DNA of 4,799 nt from a virus (lineage: Duplodnaviria; Heunggongvirae; Uroviricota; Caudoviricetes), in IMG/VR virus record IMGVR_UViG_2657244940_000018. The stretch is one strand, 5' to 3'. The number at the start of each line of letters is the position of its first letter. Positions within the stretch are counted from its first letter, which is position 1. Of this stretch, positions 1-4,799 are shown one piece after another. Position numbers and translations under genes: made by a program. The notes beneath the pieces were generated by a model. That model did not search any database. It was not told the DNA's origin and saw only the letters and a list, made by a program, of their open reading frames with translations.

Positions 1-166
1 ATATTTCGAAGTTATCAGGTGGACAGTTAATCCATTTGTTAGAGCCTGCTATGATTTCCCTGTCCCAACGTTTTATTCTTTCGCCATTTCTTTCTATGCA
101 TATCATGTAATTTGATGGGGTCATTAATTCTTTGGATGCCGAAAGACATTCCTTAAATGATGACAT
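1..166 (-). CDS. Hypothetical protein, N-terminal fragment of an AT-rich ORF that runs off the left window edge
   Basis: The reverse complement of 1..172 reads in one frame with no stop: (LE)MSSFKECLSASKELMTPSNYMICIERNGERIKRWDREIIAGSNKWINCPPDNFEI. The first ATG is at 166..164 and the frame is open from 184, inside the IS end. The other two minus frames contain stops. GC content is far lower than the rest of the window. No obvious Shine-Dalgarno sequence precedes the ATG and I do not recognise the protein. The six-frame track omits it, probably as too short or partial. Confidence 0.3.
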   Translation of the reverse strand, partial: MSSFKECLSASKELMTPSNYMICIERNGERIKRWDREIIAGSNKWINCPPDNFEI

Positions 167-172
167 TTCAAG

Positions 173-194
173 GTAAGCGACTCGTCAGAACCGT
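173..194. repeat. Terminal inverted repeat of the IS66-family element (tnpC-proximal end)
   Basis: GTAAGCGACTCGTCAGAACCGT matches the reverse complement of 2850..2871 at 16 of 22 positions. A GTAA terminus and imperfect inverted repeats are characteristic of the IS66 family. Confidence 0.55.
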
Positions 195-202
195 ATTGAT
201 AT

Positions 203-1774
203 TTACTGAGAGCTCAGATCAACTTTCCAGGGCAACAGATCGCGTACCCGGTTTGCCGGCCAGTCCTGGATATGTTCAATGACGTAACGCAGCCACTTTT
301 CTGGCTCCACATTGTTCAGACGGCATGTGCCGATCAGCGAGTACAACACCGCCGCATGTTCACCACCGCTGTCGGAACCCGCGAACATCCAGTTTTTCCG
401 GCCTACGGCCACTCCCCGTAAGGCGTTCTCTGCGATGTTGTTGTCGATTTCCACCCAGCCATTACTGCAGTACACGTTCAGTGCATCCCACTGTTTCAGC
501 AGGTATGCGAACGCTTTTGCCGTATCTGACTGACGCGACAGTGTTTTCATCTGTTGCTGTATCCAGTCATACAGTGACTGCATCAGTGGCGCGGCTCTGG
601 CTTTTCTTGCCGCCAGACGCTGTTCTGCTGAACAGCCCCGGACCTCTGCCTCGATGGCATACAGTTCACCGATACGCTGCAGGGCTTCCGTGGTGATGTA
701 GGTGGGCGCTCTTGCATGCACATCGTGGATTTTTCTCCGGGCATGAGCCATACACGCGGCTTCCGTTATTCTGCCGGATTCGTATAACGCCCGGTAACCA
801 CCGTAAGCATCGGCCTGAAGCACACCGCTGTAACCGGCCAGGTGATTTTGTGGATGGATACCTTTCCGGTCCGGACTGTACGCGAACCAGACCGCCGGGG
901 GCATCTGTGAACCGGCGTTACGGTCATCACGGACGTAGACCCACAGCCGGGCTGTCCGGGTTTTACCGCTGCCCGGCTCCTGGACCGGGACGGGGATATC
1001 ATCAGCATGGACTTTACCGGGCATCAGCACATACTGGCGCAGGACGTCATACAGCGGCTCCAGCAGTTCAGCAACAGCACCTGTCCAGCGCCCCAGTGTG
1101 GCACGGCTCAGCTCCACTCCCTGACGACGGTATATTTCTGACTGGCGGTATAACGGCAGATGGTCTGCATATTTCCCGGTGACAACATGGGCCAGAAGCC
1201 CCGCTCCGGTATAACTGCGTGCAATGGGTTTTGAAGGTACTGGTGCCTGCACGATATGGTCGCACCGGCAACAGGCCTGTTTCGGACGTTGTGTTTCGAT
1301 AACCTTAAAGGCGCTGCTGATAAGCTCCAGTTGCTCTGACACATCACATCCCAGAGAACTGAGTTCACCACCACAGGCAGGACAGCATTCCTCTTCCGGC
1401 CGGATAACCCGGGTTTCACGGGGAAGTGAGGCCGGTAACGGTTTACGGGCTGAAGACTGGCGCAGGGCGGATGGCAGTACCGGGTCATATTGCTCACCCA
1501 GCGTTTCCGCCATTTCTTCCTGAAGTGCGCTGATTCGCTCCTGTGCTTCCTGTATCTGCCGTTCGGTTTTTGCACGAAGTTTTTCTGAGCTTTTACCGAA
1601 CTGCATACGTTGCAGTTTCGCAACCAGCGCCTTCAGCCGGTTGATTTCGGAAGCATAAGCCGCCACCCGCTGTGAGAGCAGGCGGTTGTATTCAGCCATC
1701 TGGCGGATGGTGTCCTGTTGCGTCTGCAACAGTGCCCGCAGGCGGGCGTTCTCATGAGCAAGTGAGGTGTCCAT
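203..1774 (-). CDS. tnpC: IS66-family transposase TnpC
   Basis: 523-aa ORF. The N-terminus is leucine-rich and coiled-coil-like ([26 protein letters not shown]). Paired CxxC motifs (CCPACGGEL ... CCRCDH) fit the IS66 transposase zinc-finger region, followed by a large catalytic domain. It lies immediately downstream of tnpB, as in IS66 elements. Confidence 0.93.
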
Positions 1775-1778
1775 ATCC

Positions 1779-2141
1779 TCACTTTACAACGGGATATATG
1801 CGGATTCCAGCGCGTTCCGTTCGTTTCGGGTGCTTCCAGTTGATACCTTCAAGAAGCATGGATAACTGAGCCGGAGTAAGGTGCACCTTGCCGTCACGGG
1901 TGACTGGCCAGACGAAGCGGCCCCGCTCCAGGCGTTTGGTGAAGAGGCACAGTCCGTCACTGTCAGCCCACAACACTTTTATCTGGTCACCCCGGCGTCC
2001 GCGGAAGATGAACAGGTGTCCGGAGAACGGGTCATCCTTCAGGACGTTCTGAACTTTTGATGCCAGGCCGTTAAAGCCATTTCGCATATCGGTGATACCT
2101 GCAACCAGCCAGATACGCGAACCTGCAGGGAGAGATATCAT
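1779..2141 (-). CDS. tnpB: IS66-family accessory protein TnpB (IS66 Orf2)
   Basis: 120-aa [37 protein letters not shown]...[22 protein letters not shown], which I recognise as the conserved IS66 Orf2/TnpB protein. Its ATG overlaps the tnpA stop (TGATG), suggesting translational coupling. Confidence 0.93.
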
Positions 2142-2818
2142 CAGTGGTTGCTCCCTTTTATTTCGCGGATAAGTGTCTGTAATAACGCCGGCGTCAGTTT
2201 ACCTTTAAGCCTGAGAGTTCCGGCCGGCAGAACCAGCTCACAACACAGACTGTCGGACGGTGTATTTATCTGCTCTGGTTCCTGTGCGGGGGCCGGGATT
2301 TTATTATCCGGCTCCGGCGTTAACGTCACGGGAAGCAGTGCCGGCATATTTTTTCCGGAAGGCAGCAGGCCACCTTTCCGGTATTGATGGCGCCAGTTGA
2401 AGAGCAGGTTATCGTTGATTCCGTTTTCCCGGGCGATCTGCGCCACACAGGCTCCGGGCTGCAGTGACTGCTCCACTAAGGCGATTTTAAACTCATAAGG
2501 GAAGTTGGGCCGCCGGGGACGTTTTTTTACCACGGGGGCTTCGGATATAACGGTGCTTTCAGGACGTACGACTGGTACCGTGGAAAATTGTCCGTAAAGG
2601 CAGGCATCAAGTTCCTGCTCCGACATGCCTGCGGGCAAAGGCCACGAAAGACCAGCTCTCCGAAAGCGCACGAACATACTACAAACTGTTGATTTTGGTA
2701 CACCCAGGCGACGCCCGGCCACAACCCGGGGTAAATGTTCTTCAAAGTGAAGACGTAAAGCTTCAGTGATCCAGGTCCGGTGTTTCATACGATAGTGTCC
2801 ATTAAAAATGATGGACAT
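2141..2818 (-). CDS. tnpA: IS66-family accessory protein TnpA (helix-turn-helix DNA-binding protein)
   Basis: 225-aa ORF with two helix-turn-helix-like segments (RRLGVPKSTVCSMFVRF and GACVAQIARENGINDNLLFNWRHQYRKG), then a proline-rich tail. It is the first gene of the tnpA-tnpB-tnpC set. The start is ambiguous: alternative Met codons lie at 2788 (MKHRTW...) and further inside (MSEQELD...). Confidence 0.8.
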   Translation of the reverse strand: MSIIFNGHYRMKHRTWITEALRLHFEEHLPRVVAGRRLGVPKSTVCSMFVRFRRAGLSWPLPAGMSEQELDACLYGQFSTVPVVRPESTVISEAPVVKKRPRRPNFPYEFKIALVEQSLQPGACVAQIARENGINDNLLFNWRHQYRKGGLLPSGKNMPALLPVTLTPEPDNKIPAPAQEPEQINTPSDSLCCELVLPAGTLRLKGKLTPALLQTLIREIKGSNH

Positions 2819-2849
2819 TATTTTTGTAGAGCCGGAGGAAACAGACCAG

Positions 2850-2871
2850 ACGGTTTAAATGAGCCGGTTAC
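2850..2871. repeat. Terminal inverted repeat of the IS66-family element (tnpA-proximal end)
   Basis: The reverse complement of 2850..2871 is GTAACCGGCTCATTTAAACCGT, matching 173..194 at 16 of 22 positions. Homology to phage gene I stops exactly at this point. Confidence 0.55.
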
Positions 2872-3415
2872 TATCCAGCGAGGAAAAGTACGTGTTCTGT
2901 CTGCCGTTATCCGTTACGCGGTAATCCGGTGTTTTTGCCTTCGGGGCCAGCATCTGTGCCACACCGCCCAGTATCATGCTGGCCCCCAGTGAAAACAGCA
3001 TCGTGGTGGCAGAAAAACCACCGGCACTCAGGGCTGAACCCCATAACGCCATCGAGGCACCGGCCGTGAAGAAAGAGCCCACGATGGCTGCCGCCCCCAG
3101 CACAATCTGCAGTCCGCCCTTTCCGGCTCCGGCCAGTCGCGGCACAATGTGGATGACCGTTCCCTCACCCAGCTGTTCGTGAAGACGGGCGTACACCGCC
3201 TCCGGTGCCGTGTCATCACCGGCAATACGTATCTGGTACCAGCCTTCGTTCATCTGACGGCGGAATCCGGGCACCTGTAACGACAGGGCGCGAATGGCTT
3301 CCGCTGCCGTGTTCACATACAGGCTGAGGCGGCGGCCAAATCGTTGTAAATCCCCGTGAAGGCAGATGCGTGCCAGTGGCGGTGACGCCAGACAGAATGC
3401 GTTCGTCGTTGCCAT
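2855..3415 (-). pseudogene. I: Lambda-like tail assembly protein I (gpI homolog), 3'-truncated by the IS66-family element
   Basis: The N-terminus MATTNAFCLASPPLARICLHGDLQRFGRR and the rest through ...KTPDYRVTDNGRQNTYFSSLD closely resemble lambda gpI as I recall it (223 aa). Similarity ends at about 2872, and the last codons (S-N-R-L-I-stop, 2855..2872) are read from the IS terminus. About 40 C-terminal residues are missing. Confidence 0.85.
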
Positions 3416-4056
3416 TTTTCGGAATACCTCTCCCGTTTACTCAGTTGTTCAGGCAGATGGTGAAGCAGCTCACCGTTGCCGCAGTAAATGGCGGCATGAT
3501 TAGCCACCGATGCGCCGAAGCAGCACAGCAGGATATCGCCCGGCAGTGCAGAGGACAGGGGCACCCGGTAAAAGCCCGTTGCCTCCATATTGTCCAGGTA
3601 AAGGTTCTGACCGTTGCACCACCAGTCATCCCCGCGATGAAAATCCGGCATATCAATGCCTGCCAGATGGTATGCATCCCGGAACAGCGTGTAACAGTCC
3701 GTCACCCCGTGCGCAAAGCGCCGTCCCGTCAGGTGCGGAACGCAGCGGAATTTGTGAATGTCACCCCGGCTGACCAGCCACCAGGGCAGTGCGCTTTTTA
3801 TCTGCAGCCGCCGGTCGGCCTCGCTCAGCCAGGGCAGTCCACCGGGATGACTGTGGACCAGTGCCACAATCTCCCCCTGCATCTCTGCCCGCAGCCAGTC
3901 TTCCGGTGCGATACGAAAATACGCCTCAGGCTCTGCAGAGATATTCACGCACGGCTGGTACTGGTTGCCCTCCGGCGTGCTTATCACGAAGCCGCACGAC
4001 TCCGCAGGCGCACACCGCCGGGCATGCGCCAGAATCGCTGATTCAGTCTGTGTCAT
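3313..4056 (-). CDS. K: Lambda-like tail assembly protein K (gpK homolog; JAB/MPN plus NlpC/P60 domains)
   Basis: 247-aa ORF with a JAMM-type motif HSHPGGLPWLSEAD (HxH-x7-S-xx-D) in the N-terminal half and NlpC/P60-like Cys and His contexts (GVTDCYTLFRDAYH, NHAAIYCG) in the C-terminal half. It sits between L and I, as in lambda. Its 3' end overlaps the start of I by about 100 nt in another frame. Confidence 0.9.
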   Translation of the reverse strand: MTQTESAILAHARRCAPAESCGFVISTPEGNQYQPCVNISAEPEAYFRIAPEDWLRAEMQGEIVALVHSHPGGLPWLSEADRRLQIKSALPWWLVSRGDIHKFRCVPHLTGRRFAHGVTDCYTLFRDAYHLAGIDMPDFHRGDDWWCNGQNLYLDNMEATGFYRVPLSSALPGDILLCCFGASVANHAAIYCGNGELLHHLPEQLSKRERYSEKWQRRTHSVWRHRHWHASAFTGIYNDLAAASACM

Positions 4057-4061
4057 GGGAT

Positions 4062-4761
4062 TTACTGCGAAAGTTTATTAATGGAAAGGAAACCGCCAAA
4101 ATTGCCGACATTCCTGCGCAGTTCACACCCGCGCATGCACTTGCTGCATCTGTCCTTACGGATATCCGTGGTGGGTTTATCGAACTCATCCGCCACAGCC
4201 CCGCCCGTGTAACCACACTCATCAGAGCGGTAGGTCCACATACAGGTGTTCGCCAGCATGATACGACCGGGAAACAGCGCCCCGTCCGTCTCGGTCGGTG
4301 TGGCCAGCACAAACGAGGCCGTCATGGCTGTCAGCTGCGACATCTGCTCCACCACCCAGCGGTCACTCAGCTCCTGCTCCGGGTCCGCCTCCGGATTGCC
4401 CGCAACGAAATTCACCGCATCCAGAAAACGGGCATACACCCGGCGGCGGACCACCGTGGCCCCCACCAGGCTCTGCAAATCCTCCGCCATTCCGGTGACA
4501 AGACCAAACAGATTGGACACCGTCAGCGACGGGCGGGCACTGCTGCCCTTTCCGTTCATCTCAAAGCCACTCCCCTCAATCGGGTACGCCTGATATTGCC
4601 GCCCCTGCCAGGTCACCGGCTCCCCCTTTTTCATTCAGCTCATTACAGAAAAAATACCGCTCACCGCCCTGTACCGTCAGGTCGATTTCCCAGAGCAACA
4701 CCCGCGGTGACTGCTCTGACTTAACCGACTCGTTCAGACTTTCTTCGTGAATATCCTGCAT
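4062..4761 (-). pseudogene. L: Lambda-like minor tail protein L (gpL homolog), disrupted by a +1 frameshift in an A5G5 run
   Basis: The N-terminus MQDIHEESLNESVKSEQSPRVLLWEIDLTVQGGERYFFCNELNEKG (ORF 4576..4761) matches the lambda gpL start. The continuation EPVTWQGRQYQAYPIEGSGFEMNGKG...NVGNFGGFLSINKLSQ is in a different frame (ORF 4062..4634). The frames switch at the coding-strand run AAAAAGGGGG (plus strand CCCCCTTTTT, 4622..4631); one fewer G would restore NEKGEPVTW. Confidence 0.88.
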
Positions 4762-4799
4762 CAGTTCACCACCTGCTCAATCGTACAACTGAAATCACT
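4761..4799 (-). CDS. M: Lambda-like minor tail protein M (gpM homolog), 3' end only (partial, runs off the right edge)
   Basis: The minus-strand frame reads ...SDFSCTIEQVVN-stop, and the TGA overlaps the L start codon (TGATG at 4759..4763). The ...EQVVN ending resembles the lambda gpM C-terminus as I recall it. Only 12 codons are visible, so this is tentative. Confidence 0.4.
   Translation of the reverse strand, partial: SDFSCTIEQVVN

What the first reader, a model, noticed from the sequence alone, without database searches (positions are those of the whole stretch)
4615..4640. Gene L is split by a single-base frameshift in a homopolymer run
The gpL reading frame changes inside the coding-strand run AAAAAGGGGG: the N-terminal 46 residues are in one frame and the remaining roughly 186 residues in another. 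Removing one G restores a continuous NEKGEPVTWQ sequence. This is either real pseudogenisation of a decaying prophage, a homopolymer sequencing error, or less likely slipped-strand variation. Together with the truncated gene I, it suggests the tail module is non-functional.
Basis: seen in the sequence. Interest (0 to 1): 0.4.

Follow-up and report, generated by a model that had tools for sequence, protein, structure and literature searches.

The report
Frameshifted tail gene L, defective prophage
A lambda-like prophage tail gene (L) in an E. coli draft genome is broken by one extra G in an AAAAAGGGG run; the change recurs in about a dozen independent assemblies, so it is most likely a real but ordinary inactivating mutation in a decaying prophage.

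Summary
On the minus strand, gene L (4761..4062) reads AAAAAGGGGG at 4631..4622. Codons 1-46 are in one frame and codons 47-232 in the +1 frame. Deleting one G gives a 232-aa protein that aligns end to end with lambda tail tip protein L (E 7e-126).

Intact relatives carry four Gs: 2647 places in 1489 complete E. coli genomes, 42 places in 39 phage records and at least 120 IMG/VR contigs. The five-G form is rare. It occurs in one error-ridden complete record and not at all in phages, IMG/VR, JGI metagenomes or GTDB species representatives.

It is probably not a one-off assembly error. The window is contig CDRA01000968.1, and the same 61-aa and 190-aa products occur in about 13 assemblies from several submitters, including two metagenomes. 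A second contig of the same assembly also carries five Gs. The sister assemblies show no general homopolymer noise.

The best reading is a genuine slippage insertion that inactivates L. An IS66-family (ISCro1-like) element cuts gene I in the same module. This is ordinary prophage decay and of low interest. A leaky +1 ribosomal slip at GGG_GGA cannot be excluded, but nothing supports it.

The parts
4622..4631 (-). Homopolymer pair A5G5 on the coding strand (A run 4631..4627, G run 4626..4622). One of the five Gs is the inserted base that shifts the L frame by +1.
   Evidence: All intact relatives aligned have A5G4.
4624..4761 (-). Gene L, codons 1-46 (MQDIHEES...NELNEKG), in the original frame.
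4576..4761 (-). The 61-aa ORF actually encoded from the L start: 46 L residues, 15 out-of-frame residues (GAGDLAGAAISGVPD), then a stop.
   Evidence: The exact product is in the protein collection.
4062..4622 (-). Gene L, codons 47-232 plus the stop, in the +1 frame. It includes the conserved C-terminal cysteines of the iron-sulfur domain.
   Evidence: PMC10721106.
4062..4634 (-). The 190-aa ORF (MKKGEPVTWQ...) that gene callers report for the 3' part of L. Its ATG lies inside the old frame and is probably not a real start.
4761..4799 (-). 3' end of gene M (tail protein). Its TGA stop overlaps the L start by one base.
   Evidence: annotation of the SW070917 relative.
3313..4056 (-). Gene K homologue, intact at 247 aa (JAB/MPN + NlpC/P60). 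It starts 5 nt after the L stop and has no obvious Shine-Dalgarno sequence.
   Evidence: Same length as the annotated C40 peptidases.
2872..3415 (-). Gene I (tail assembly / tip insertion protein), cut after ...QNTYFSSLD by the IS. The ORF then reads 5 IS-encoded codons to a stop at 2855.
173..2871 (-). IS66-family element (ISCro1-like) with ends GTAAGCG...CCGGTTAC. It carries tnpA (2818..2141), tnpB (2141..1779) and tnpC (1774..203).
   Evidence: It is 99.8% identical and gap-free against the EH031 copy.

Best explanation
The window is a whole short contig of an E. coli draft genome. It carries part of the tail-tip module (M'-L-K-I) of a lambda-like prophage.

A single G was added to the G4 run of the conserved AAAAAGGGG tract in L, most likely by replication slippage. 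This shifts the frame by +1 after codon 46. Translation from the L start then ends after 61 codons, inside the N-terminal beta-sandwich hub domain (residues 1-166 in lambda gpL). No full-length hub protein L can be made by standard decoding.

The same prophage copy has gene I split by an IS66-family insertion, so two essential tail-tip genes are broken and the copy cannot build tails on its own.

The mutant allele is real and heritable. It is fixed in a set of related E. coli isolates. It sits in at least two co-resident prophage copies that share an identical 5' half of L, which is best explained by recombination or gene conversion between paralogous prophages.

Shown: the frameshift, its rarity, its recurrence in independent assemblies, and the IS insertion. 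Inferred: slippage as the cause, spread by recombination, loss of function, and possible polarity on K, which lacks its own ribosome-binding site.
For: - Anatomy of the frameshift.
- Identity as L: repair by one G gives a protein colinear with lambda gpL and a Pfam Phage_tail_L match.
- Four Gs is the normal state: 2647 places in 1489 complete E. coli genomes, 42 places in 39 phage records including Stx phages, and at least 120 IMG/VR contigs.
- Five Gs is rare: one complete-genome record, which PGAP annotates as a 'frameshifted' pseudogene. It is absent from phages, GTDB species representatives, IMG/VR and JGI metagenomes.
- Reproducibility: the exact 190-aa and 61-aa products occur on contigs of 11 NCBI assemblies and 2 ENA metagenome assemblies. 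All of them carry GAATGAAAAAGGGGGAGCC.
- Low assembly noise: the extra G is the only indel in 5915 nt of sister contig L007 against its best complete relative. The IS has no indel in 2699 nt.
- Two copies per genome: contig L009, from the same assembly, has five Gs in an L gene that matches the window through alignment column 462 apart from one substitution, and is identical to sister allele L003 there. Beyond that point it has a different 3' part. Four contigs from other assemblies end just after the tract, at the next polymorphic site.
- The intact version of the sister allele's protein exists on 162 contigs.
- gpL and gpI are structural parts of the lambda tail tip (PMC10721106).
Against: - No raw reads were seen.
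- Six of the assemblies have neighbouring ENA accession prefixes, so they probably come from one project of unknown platform. One of them (L004) differs by a G5/G4 indel inside the IS.
- No high-quality complete genome carries five Gs.
- The five-G tract appears on several upstream haplotypes. This needs either recombination or repeated mutation.
- Loss of function was not tested.
Confidence: 0.8

Rival explanations
1. Sequencing or assembly artefact: the strain really has four Gs and the fifth is a homopolymer miscall carried into the consensus.
For: - The site is a homopolymer pair.
- The window's assembly is highly fragmented (contig numbers reach 968 here and above 2300 in two sister assemblies).
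- Six carriers share neighbouring accession prefixes.
- Sister contig L004 shows a G5/G4 difference in the IS.
- The only complete record with five Gs (MY504) is full of 'frameshifted' genes and holds the same prophage twice, so that instance probably is an error.
- Shortened versions of the tract (-1 variants) also occur sporadically in other assemblies.
Against: - The same call appears in assemblies from several unrelated submitters and assembler styles, including two metagenomes.
- It is absent from about 2650 copies with the same 40-nt context. A context-driven systematic error would not behave like that.
- The extra G is the only indel across 5.9 kb with 35 homopolymer runs in L007, and the window's IS has none.
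Confidence: 0.08
2. Leaky or programmed +1 ribosomal frameshift. With tRNA-Gly on GGG in the P site and the less used GGA codon in the A site, the ribosome slips one base onto the overlapping GGG and reads GAG next. This recreates NEKGEPVTWQ, so some full-length gpL is still made (only three copies are needed per tail).
For: - The sequence allows perfect re-pairing in the +1 frame, and the slipped product would be identical to wild type.
- The downstream 186 codons are intact in all five-G copies whose contig spans them.
- The allele persists in more than one prophage copy and in several isolates.
- Suppression of GGGG-type frameshifts by glycine tRNAs is established genetics (own knowledge).
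Against: - The site is not conserved. Relatives, free phages and lambda itself have the in-frame four-G tract.
- No correctly spaced upstream stimulator was seen on inspecting the sequence, and there is no unusual downstream RNA structure (z -0.34).
- The intact downstream frame is expected for a recent mutation, and the 3' differences between five-G copies match intact alleles, so they came by recombination.
- Gene I in the same copy is destroyed by an IS, so there is no sign of selection for a working tail.
Confidence: 0.05
3. Phase-variable (contingency) tract: the G run switches between four and five at high frequency to turn tail production on and off.
For: Both +1 and -1 length variants of the same tract are found sporadically across E. 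coli assemblies.
Against: - Runs of five are well below the lengths that give useful switching rates (own knowledge).
- All of about 13 carriers of this haplotype have five Gs.
- Variants make up roughly 0.1% of copies in complete genomes.
Confidence: 0.03

Closest known systems
Bacteriophage lambda tail tip (hub) protein gpL (Pfam PF05100; PDB 8IYK chain L)
   Same: After removal of one G the product is 232 aa and colinear with lambda gpL over 1-232 (E 7e-126). Gene order is M-L-K-I. The cysteines of the [4Fe-4S] domain (C173, C182, C205, C212 in lambda; PMC10721106) are conserved in the alignment.
   Different: Here the gene is interrupted after codon 46 by a +1 frameshift. As it stands, it encodes a 61-aa stub and an unlinked 3' frame.
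Defective lambdoid prophages of E. coli (for example the prophage pool of EHEC strains), which carry frameshifts and IS insertions in morphogenesis genes
   Same: A lambda-like tail module has both a point frameshift and an IS insertion. Complete-genome relatives also show 'frameshifted' tail genes and IS66-like insertions in K or between I and J.
   Different: This particular allele (five Gs in L, with ISCro1-like in I at this site) was not found in any of 5426 complete genomes. The comparison with the EHEC prophage literature rests on my own knowledge; I did not read a paper for it.
The stf frameshift of laboratory lambda
   Same: A single frameshift silently inactivates a tail gene in an otherwise lambda-type tail module (mentioned in PMC10721106).
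   Different: stf is dispensable for plaque formation. L is a structural hub protein, so its loss should abolish tail assembly.
Programmed +1 frameshift sites (prfB type)
   Same: A P-site codon can re-pair perfectly one base downstream (GGG_G).
   Different: There is no conservation of the shifted arrangement among homologues, no stop or demonstrably slow A-site codon, and no correctly spaced Shine-Dalgarno-like stimulator.

Membership tests
Lambda gpL / Phage_tail_L (PF05100) | Significant match to the family profile | tested here: met
   Repaired protein E 8.4e-93; the 190-aa fragment E 2.7e-86.
Lambda gpL / Phage_tail_L (PF05100) | Full-length colinearity with lambda gpL, including the conserved cysteines of the Fe-S domain | tested here: met
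   Alignment 1-232 to 1-232 with 8iyk_L. Cysteine positions taken from PMC10721106.
Lambda gpL / Phage_tail_L (PF05100) | Position in the M-L-K-I tail-tip gene order | tested here: met
Lambda gpL / Phage_tail_L (PF05100) | Uninterrupted reading frame (a functional gene rather than a pseudogene) | tested here: not met
   The frame changes after codon 46 and a stop follows at codon 62. The equivalent five-G copy in MY504 is annotated as a 'frameshifted' pseudogene.
Programmed +1 ribosomal frameshift site | The shifted arrangement is conserved among homologues | tested here: not met
   Four Gs (in frame) in 2647 E. coli places, 42 phage places and at least 120 IMG/VR contigs. Five Gs in essentially none.
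Programmed +1 ribosomal frameshift site | P-site codon able to re-pair in the +1 frame | tested here: met
   GGG_G, read directly from the sequence.
Programmed +1 ribosomal frameshift site | Stimulatory element (slow or stop A-site codon, upstream SD-like element at the right spacing, or RNA structure) | tested here: inconclusive
   The A-site codon is GGA, a sense codon. No unusual structure (z -0.34). The SD-like GGGGGAG overlaps the shift site instead of preceding it.
Programmed +1 ribosomal frameshift site | Full-length trans-frame product is made | not testable with these tools
   Needs proteomics or a reporter assay.
Phase-variable homopolymer (contingency) locus | Long tract, and both lengths present among very close relatives | tested here: not met
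   The tract is only 5 nt. All carriers of this haplotype have five Gs.
IS66 family insertion sequence (the element that cuts gene I) | tnpA, tnpB and tnpC (DDE_Tnp_IS66) in order, with GTAAGCG-type terminal repeats | tested here: met
   Pfam matches; ends at 173 and 2871; 99.8% identity to an annotated ISCro1-family copy.
IS66 family insertion sequence (the element that cuts gene I) | 8-bp target site duplication flanking the element | tested here: inconclusive
   The flanks atttcaag and tatccagc differ. The distal flank also differs between sister assemblies, so it is probably an assembly join through a multicopy repeat.

The most novel reading that the evidence does not exclude
The five-G allele may not be dead. 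A +1 slip of glycyl-tRNA on GGG_GGA could restore low-level full-length hub protein L. That would allow a frameshifted L to persist and spread between co-resident prophages, acting as a natural throttle on tail production.
Probability: 0.04. Interest if true: 0.45.

Novelty: already known. Interest (0 to 1): 0.12.

Why it matters
It matters little beyond annotation. The two ORFs (61 aa and 190 aa) should be annotated as one frameshifted L pseudogene, and this prophage copy should be scored as tail-defective, since L is frameshifted and I is split by an IS.

Two side points have mild value. The A5G4 tract of lambda-type L genes is a recurrent indel site, which is useful when judging 'frameshifted' calls in E. 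coli prophages. The same dead allele sits in more than one prophage copy of a genome, which illustrates exchange between paralogous prophages.

Tried and rejected
- Source strain or sequencing platform. Two full-text paper searches, by WGS prefix and by GCA accession, found nothing.
- Five-G tract in public collections. Scans of GTDB species representatives, IMG/VR, JGI metagenomes and GenBank phages were all empty.
- Same I::IS junction or a near-identical prophage in complete genomes. None found: the best whole-window hits carry IS66-like elements at other sites (in K, or between I and J), and the best tail-region relative is only 98.7% identical.
- MY504 as an independent instance. I considered the five-G copy on its 'plasmid' and rejected it, because the record repeats the same prophage 208 kb apart and has many frameshifted genes.
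- A5G3 probe in complete genomes. No match, although exact -1 products exist elsewhere in the protein collection.
- Frameshift-stimulating RNA structure downstream of the tract. None found.
- Target-site duplication around the IS. Not found, and the distal flank is unreliable.

Full report
**What is in the window**

The 4799-nt window is a complete short contig, CDRA01000968.1 of assembly GCA_000947375.1, in reverse orientation. The proteins it shares with other records are labelled Escherichia coli by their sources.

All genes lie on the minus strand:
- the last 39 nt of tail gene M (4799..4761);
- gene L (4761..4062);
- an intact 247-aa K homologue (4056..3313, JAB/MPN + NlpC/P60);
- gene I (from 3415), cut at 2872;
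- an IS66-family element at 173..2871 with tnpA, tnpB and tnpC.

The IS is 99.8% identical, without gaps, to a copy annotated as 'IS66-like element ISCro1 family' in E. coli EH031. Bases 1-172 are an unrelated flank. Two sister assemblies diverge from the window exactly at the IS end and continue into a different flank. What lies beyond this multicopy IS is therefore not resolved by the assemblies.

**Check of the observation**

The coding strand reads AAT GAA AAA GGG GGA GCC GGT GAC. The A run is 4631..4627 and the G run is 4626..4622.

From the L start the frame gives 46 L-like residues, then 15 unrelated residues, then a stop (61 aa). The remaining 186 L residues are in the +1 frame, inside a 190-aa ORF that matches Pfam Phage_tail_L (E 2.7e-86).

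Removing one G yields a 232-aa protein containing NEKGEPVTWQ. It aligns residue for residue with lambda tail tip protein L (8iyk_L, E 7e-126).

**How unusual the tract is**

I used probes short enough that every 28-nt seed must span the tract.

| Collection | Four-G tract | Five-G tract |
|---|---|---|
| Complete E. coli genomes | 2647 places in 1489 of 5426 genomes | 1 record |
| GenBank phage records | 42 places in 39 records, including Stx-converting phages | none |
| IMG/VR contigs | at least 120 | none |
| GTDB species representatives | not scanned | none |
| JGI metagenomes | not scanned | none |

The single complete-genome record with five Gs is the linear 'plasmid' pMY504-2. There PGAP calls L a 'frameshifted' pseudogene. 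That record carries the same prophage twice, 208 kb apart, together with frameshifted terminase, portal and tape-measure genes. It looks like long-read noise, and I do not count it as an independent case.

**Real allele or artefact**

Exact-sequence look-ups show that the 190-aa and 61-aa products are not unique to this contig. They occur on contigs of:
- six assemblies with neighbouring ENA prefixes (CDQU, CDQW, CDQY, CDRA, CDRO, CCCD);
- GCA_918374325.1;
- four assemblies with six-letter NCBI prefixes (GCA_012745615.1, GCA_027171205.1, GCA_039995615.1, GCA_022476175.1);
- two ENA metagenome assemblies.

All of them contain GAATGAAAAAGGGGGAGCC.

The assemblies are not generally noisy at homopolymers. 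The 5915-nt sister contig L007 has 35 runs of five or more, and its only indel against the best complete relative (SW070917, 98.7%) is this G. The window's 2699-nt IS has no indel against EH031. One sister contig (L004) does differ by a G5/G4 indel in the IS, so some caution remains.

A context-driven systematic error is hard to reconcile with about 2650 correctly four-G copies that share the same local sequence. I therefore rate a real, heritable insertion at about 0.8 and an artefact at about 0.08.

**Spread within and between genomes**

The window's own assembly has a second contig (L009, CDRA01000746.1) with five Gs. Its L matches the window's through alignment column 462, apart from the substitution at column 102 described below, and it is identical to the sister allele L003 over that stretch. 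Beyond column 462 it switches to the 3' sequence type seen in intact EH031/ML775 alleles, and it keeps the normal L-K spacer.

Four contigs from other assemblies all stop immediately after ...GGGGGAGCCGGT, just before a known G/C polymorphic site. That pattern indicates at least two copies sharing the five-G segment in those genomes too.

Upstream (H-M) haplotypes of the carriers differ by 0 to about 5%. The simplest account is one or a few insertion events followed by recombination or gene conversion among mosaic lambdoid prophages. Repeated mutation at the same tract may also contribute.

The tract is a minor indel hot spot. The -1 products expected from A5G3 or A4G4 exist on 7, 10 and 4 contigs, and one A6G4 product exists. 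A direct A5G3 probe found nothing in complete genomes.

The intact form of the sister allele's protein is common (162 contigs). The window's own repaired protein, which carries a private V22L change, is not in the collection.

**Consequences**

In lambda, gpL is the trimeric hub protein of the tail tip. Residues 1-166 form a beta-sandwich domain that completes the last tail ring together with gpJ. Residues 154-232 bind an iron-sulfur cluster through C173, C182, C205 and C212. gpI residues 135-223 form the plug in the tip lumen (PMC10721106).

Here the L frame breaks at residue 46, inside the first domain. I is cut about 43 residues before the C-terminus expected from lambda gpI (its sequence recalled from memory), and so lacks part of the plug region. 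By standard decoding this copy cannot supply L or I.

K starts 5 nt after the L stop and has no visible ribosome-binding site. It may therefore also suffer from the loss of translational coupling; this is an inference.

**Rival readings**

A +1 slip of the P-site glycyl-tRNA from GGG onto the overlapping GGG would regenerate the wild-type sequence exactly, so some leakiness is conceivable. Several points argue against a programmed event:
- the shifted arrangement is not conserved in any relative;
- there is no correctly spaced stimulator;
- the downstream RNA is unremarkable (z -0.34);
- the neighbouring gene I is destroyed.

Phase variation is unlikely for a 5-nt run, and all carriers of this haplotype have the same length.

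**Verdict**

The finding is correct and well described. What it describes is ordinary: a single-base slippage frameshift in a tail gene of a decaying lambdoid prophage, accompanied by an IS66-family insertion in the next-but-one gene.

It is not new biology. Its practical value is for annotation (one L pseudogene rather than two small ORFs) and as a documented recurrent indel site in lambda-type L genes.

Noticed in passing
window 173..2871: Complete IS66-family (ISCro1-like) element with tnpA, tnpB and tnpC, inserted in gene I. Its ends are GTAAGCG...CCGGTTAC. It is gap-free and 99.8% identical to a copy in E. coli EH031. No 8-bp target duplication is visible.
   Followed up: partly
window 1..172; L003 4682..4768; L004 4681..4767: The sequence beyond the outer IS end differs between the window and two otherwise near-identical sister contigs. 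The distal flank is therefore probably an arbitrary assembly path through a multicopy IS, and the 3' part of gene I may lie on another contig.
   Followed up: partly
window 1794 (tnpB stop codon): A substitution relative to sister contig L003 removes the tnpB stop codon. tnpB then reads 120 aa instead of the usual 115 aa and runs up to the tnpC start.
   Followed up: no
window 4057..4061 (between the L stop and the K start): A 5-bp deletion (GGTTT) in the L-K spacer relative to all the complete-genome relatives aligned and to sister copies L008/L009. It is shared by sister contigs L003, L004 and L005. It leaves K's ATG 5 nt after the L stop.
   Followed up: partly
window 4698 (L codon 22): A private GTG-to-TTG change (V22L) distinguishes this copy from all other five-G copies. 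The repaired L protein with L22 is absent from the 15-billion-protein collection, whereas the V22 version is on 162 contigs.
   Followed up: yes
L009 (CDRA01000746.1, same assembly as the window) 1744..2443: A second frameshifted L with the same five-G tract in the same genome. It matches the window through alignment column 462 except for one substitution (column 102), then has a different 3' part and a normal L-K spacer. This suggests exchange between co-resident prophages.
   Followed up: yes
L136-L139 (contig ends): Four contigs from four different NCBI assemblies all end at ...AAAAAGGGGGAGCCGGT, immediately before a G/C polymorphic site. This implies a fork downstream of the five-G tract, and so at least two five-G copies in those genomes.
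   Followed up: partly
L014 (E. coli EH031) 6442..9892; L015 (O103 ML775) 3031..5646: IS66-like (ISCro1-family) elements also sit in the tail-tip region of other E. coli prophages, but at other sites: inside K, and between I and J next to sodC. Nine complete genomes hold a place covering at least 80% of the window (IS plus tail genes together); the two I inspected have the IS at sites different from the window's.
   Followed up: partly
L006 and L140 (NZ_AP026904.1, pMY504-2): A linear 237-kb 'plasmid' record contains the same lambdoid prophage twice, 208,096 nt apart. Both copies have identical protein ids and many 'frameshifted' genes, including L with five Gs. This is probably an assembly or long-read artefact.
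   Followed up: partly
protein collection, clusters: Products expected from -1 variants of the same tract (A5G3 or A4G4; 48 aa and 67 aa) and from an A6G4 variant occur on a few to ten contigs each. The A5G4 tract of L is a recurrent site of frameshift calls in E. coli assemblies.
   Followed up: partly
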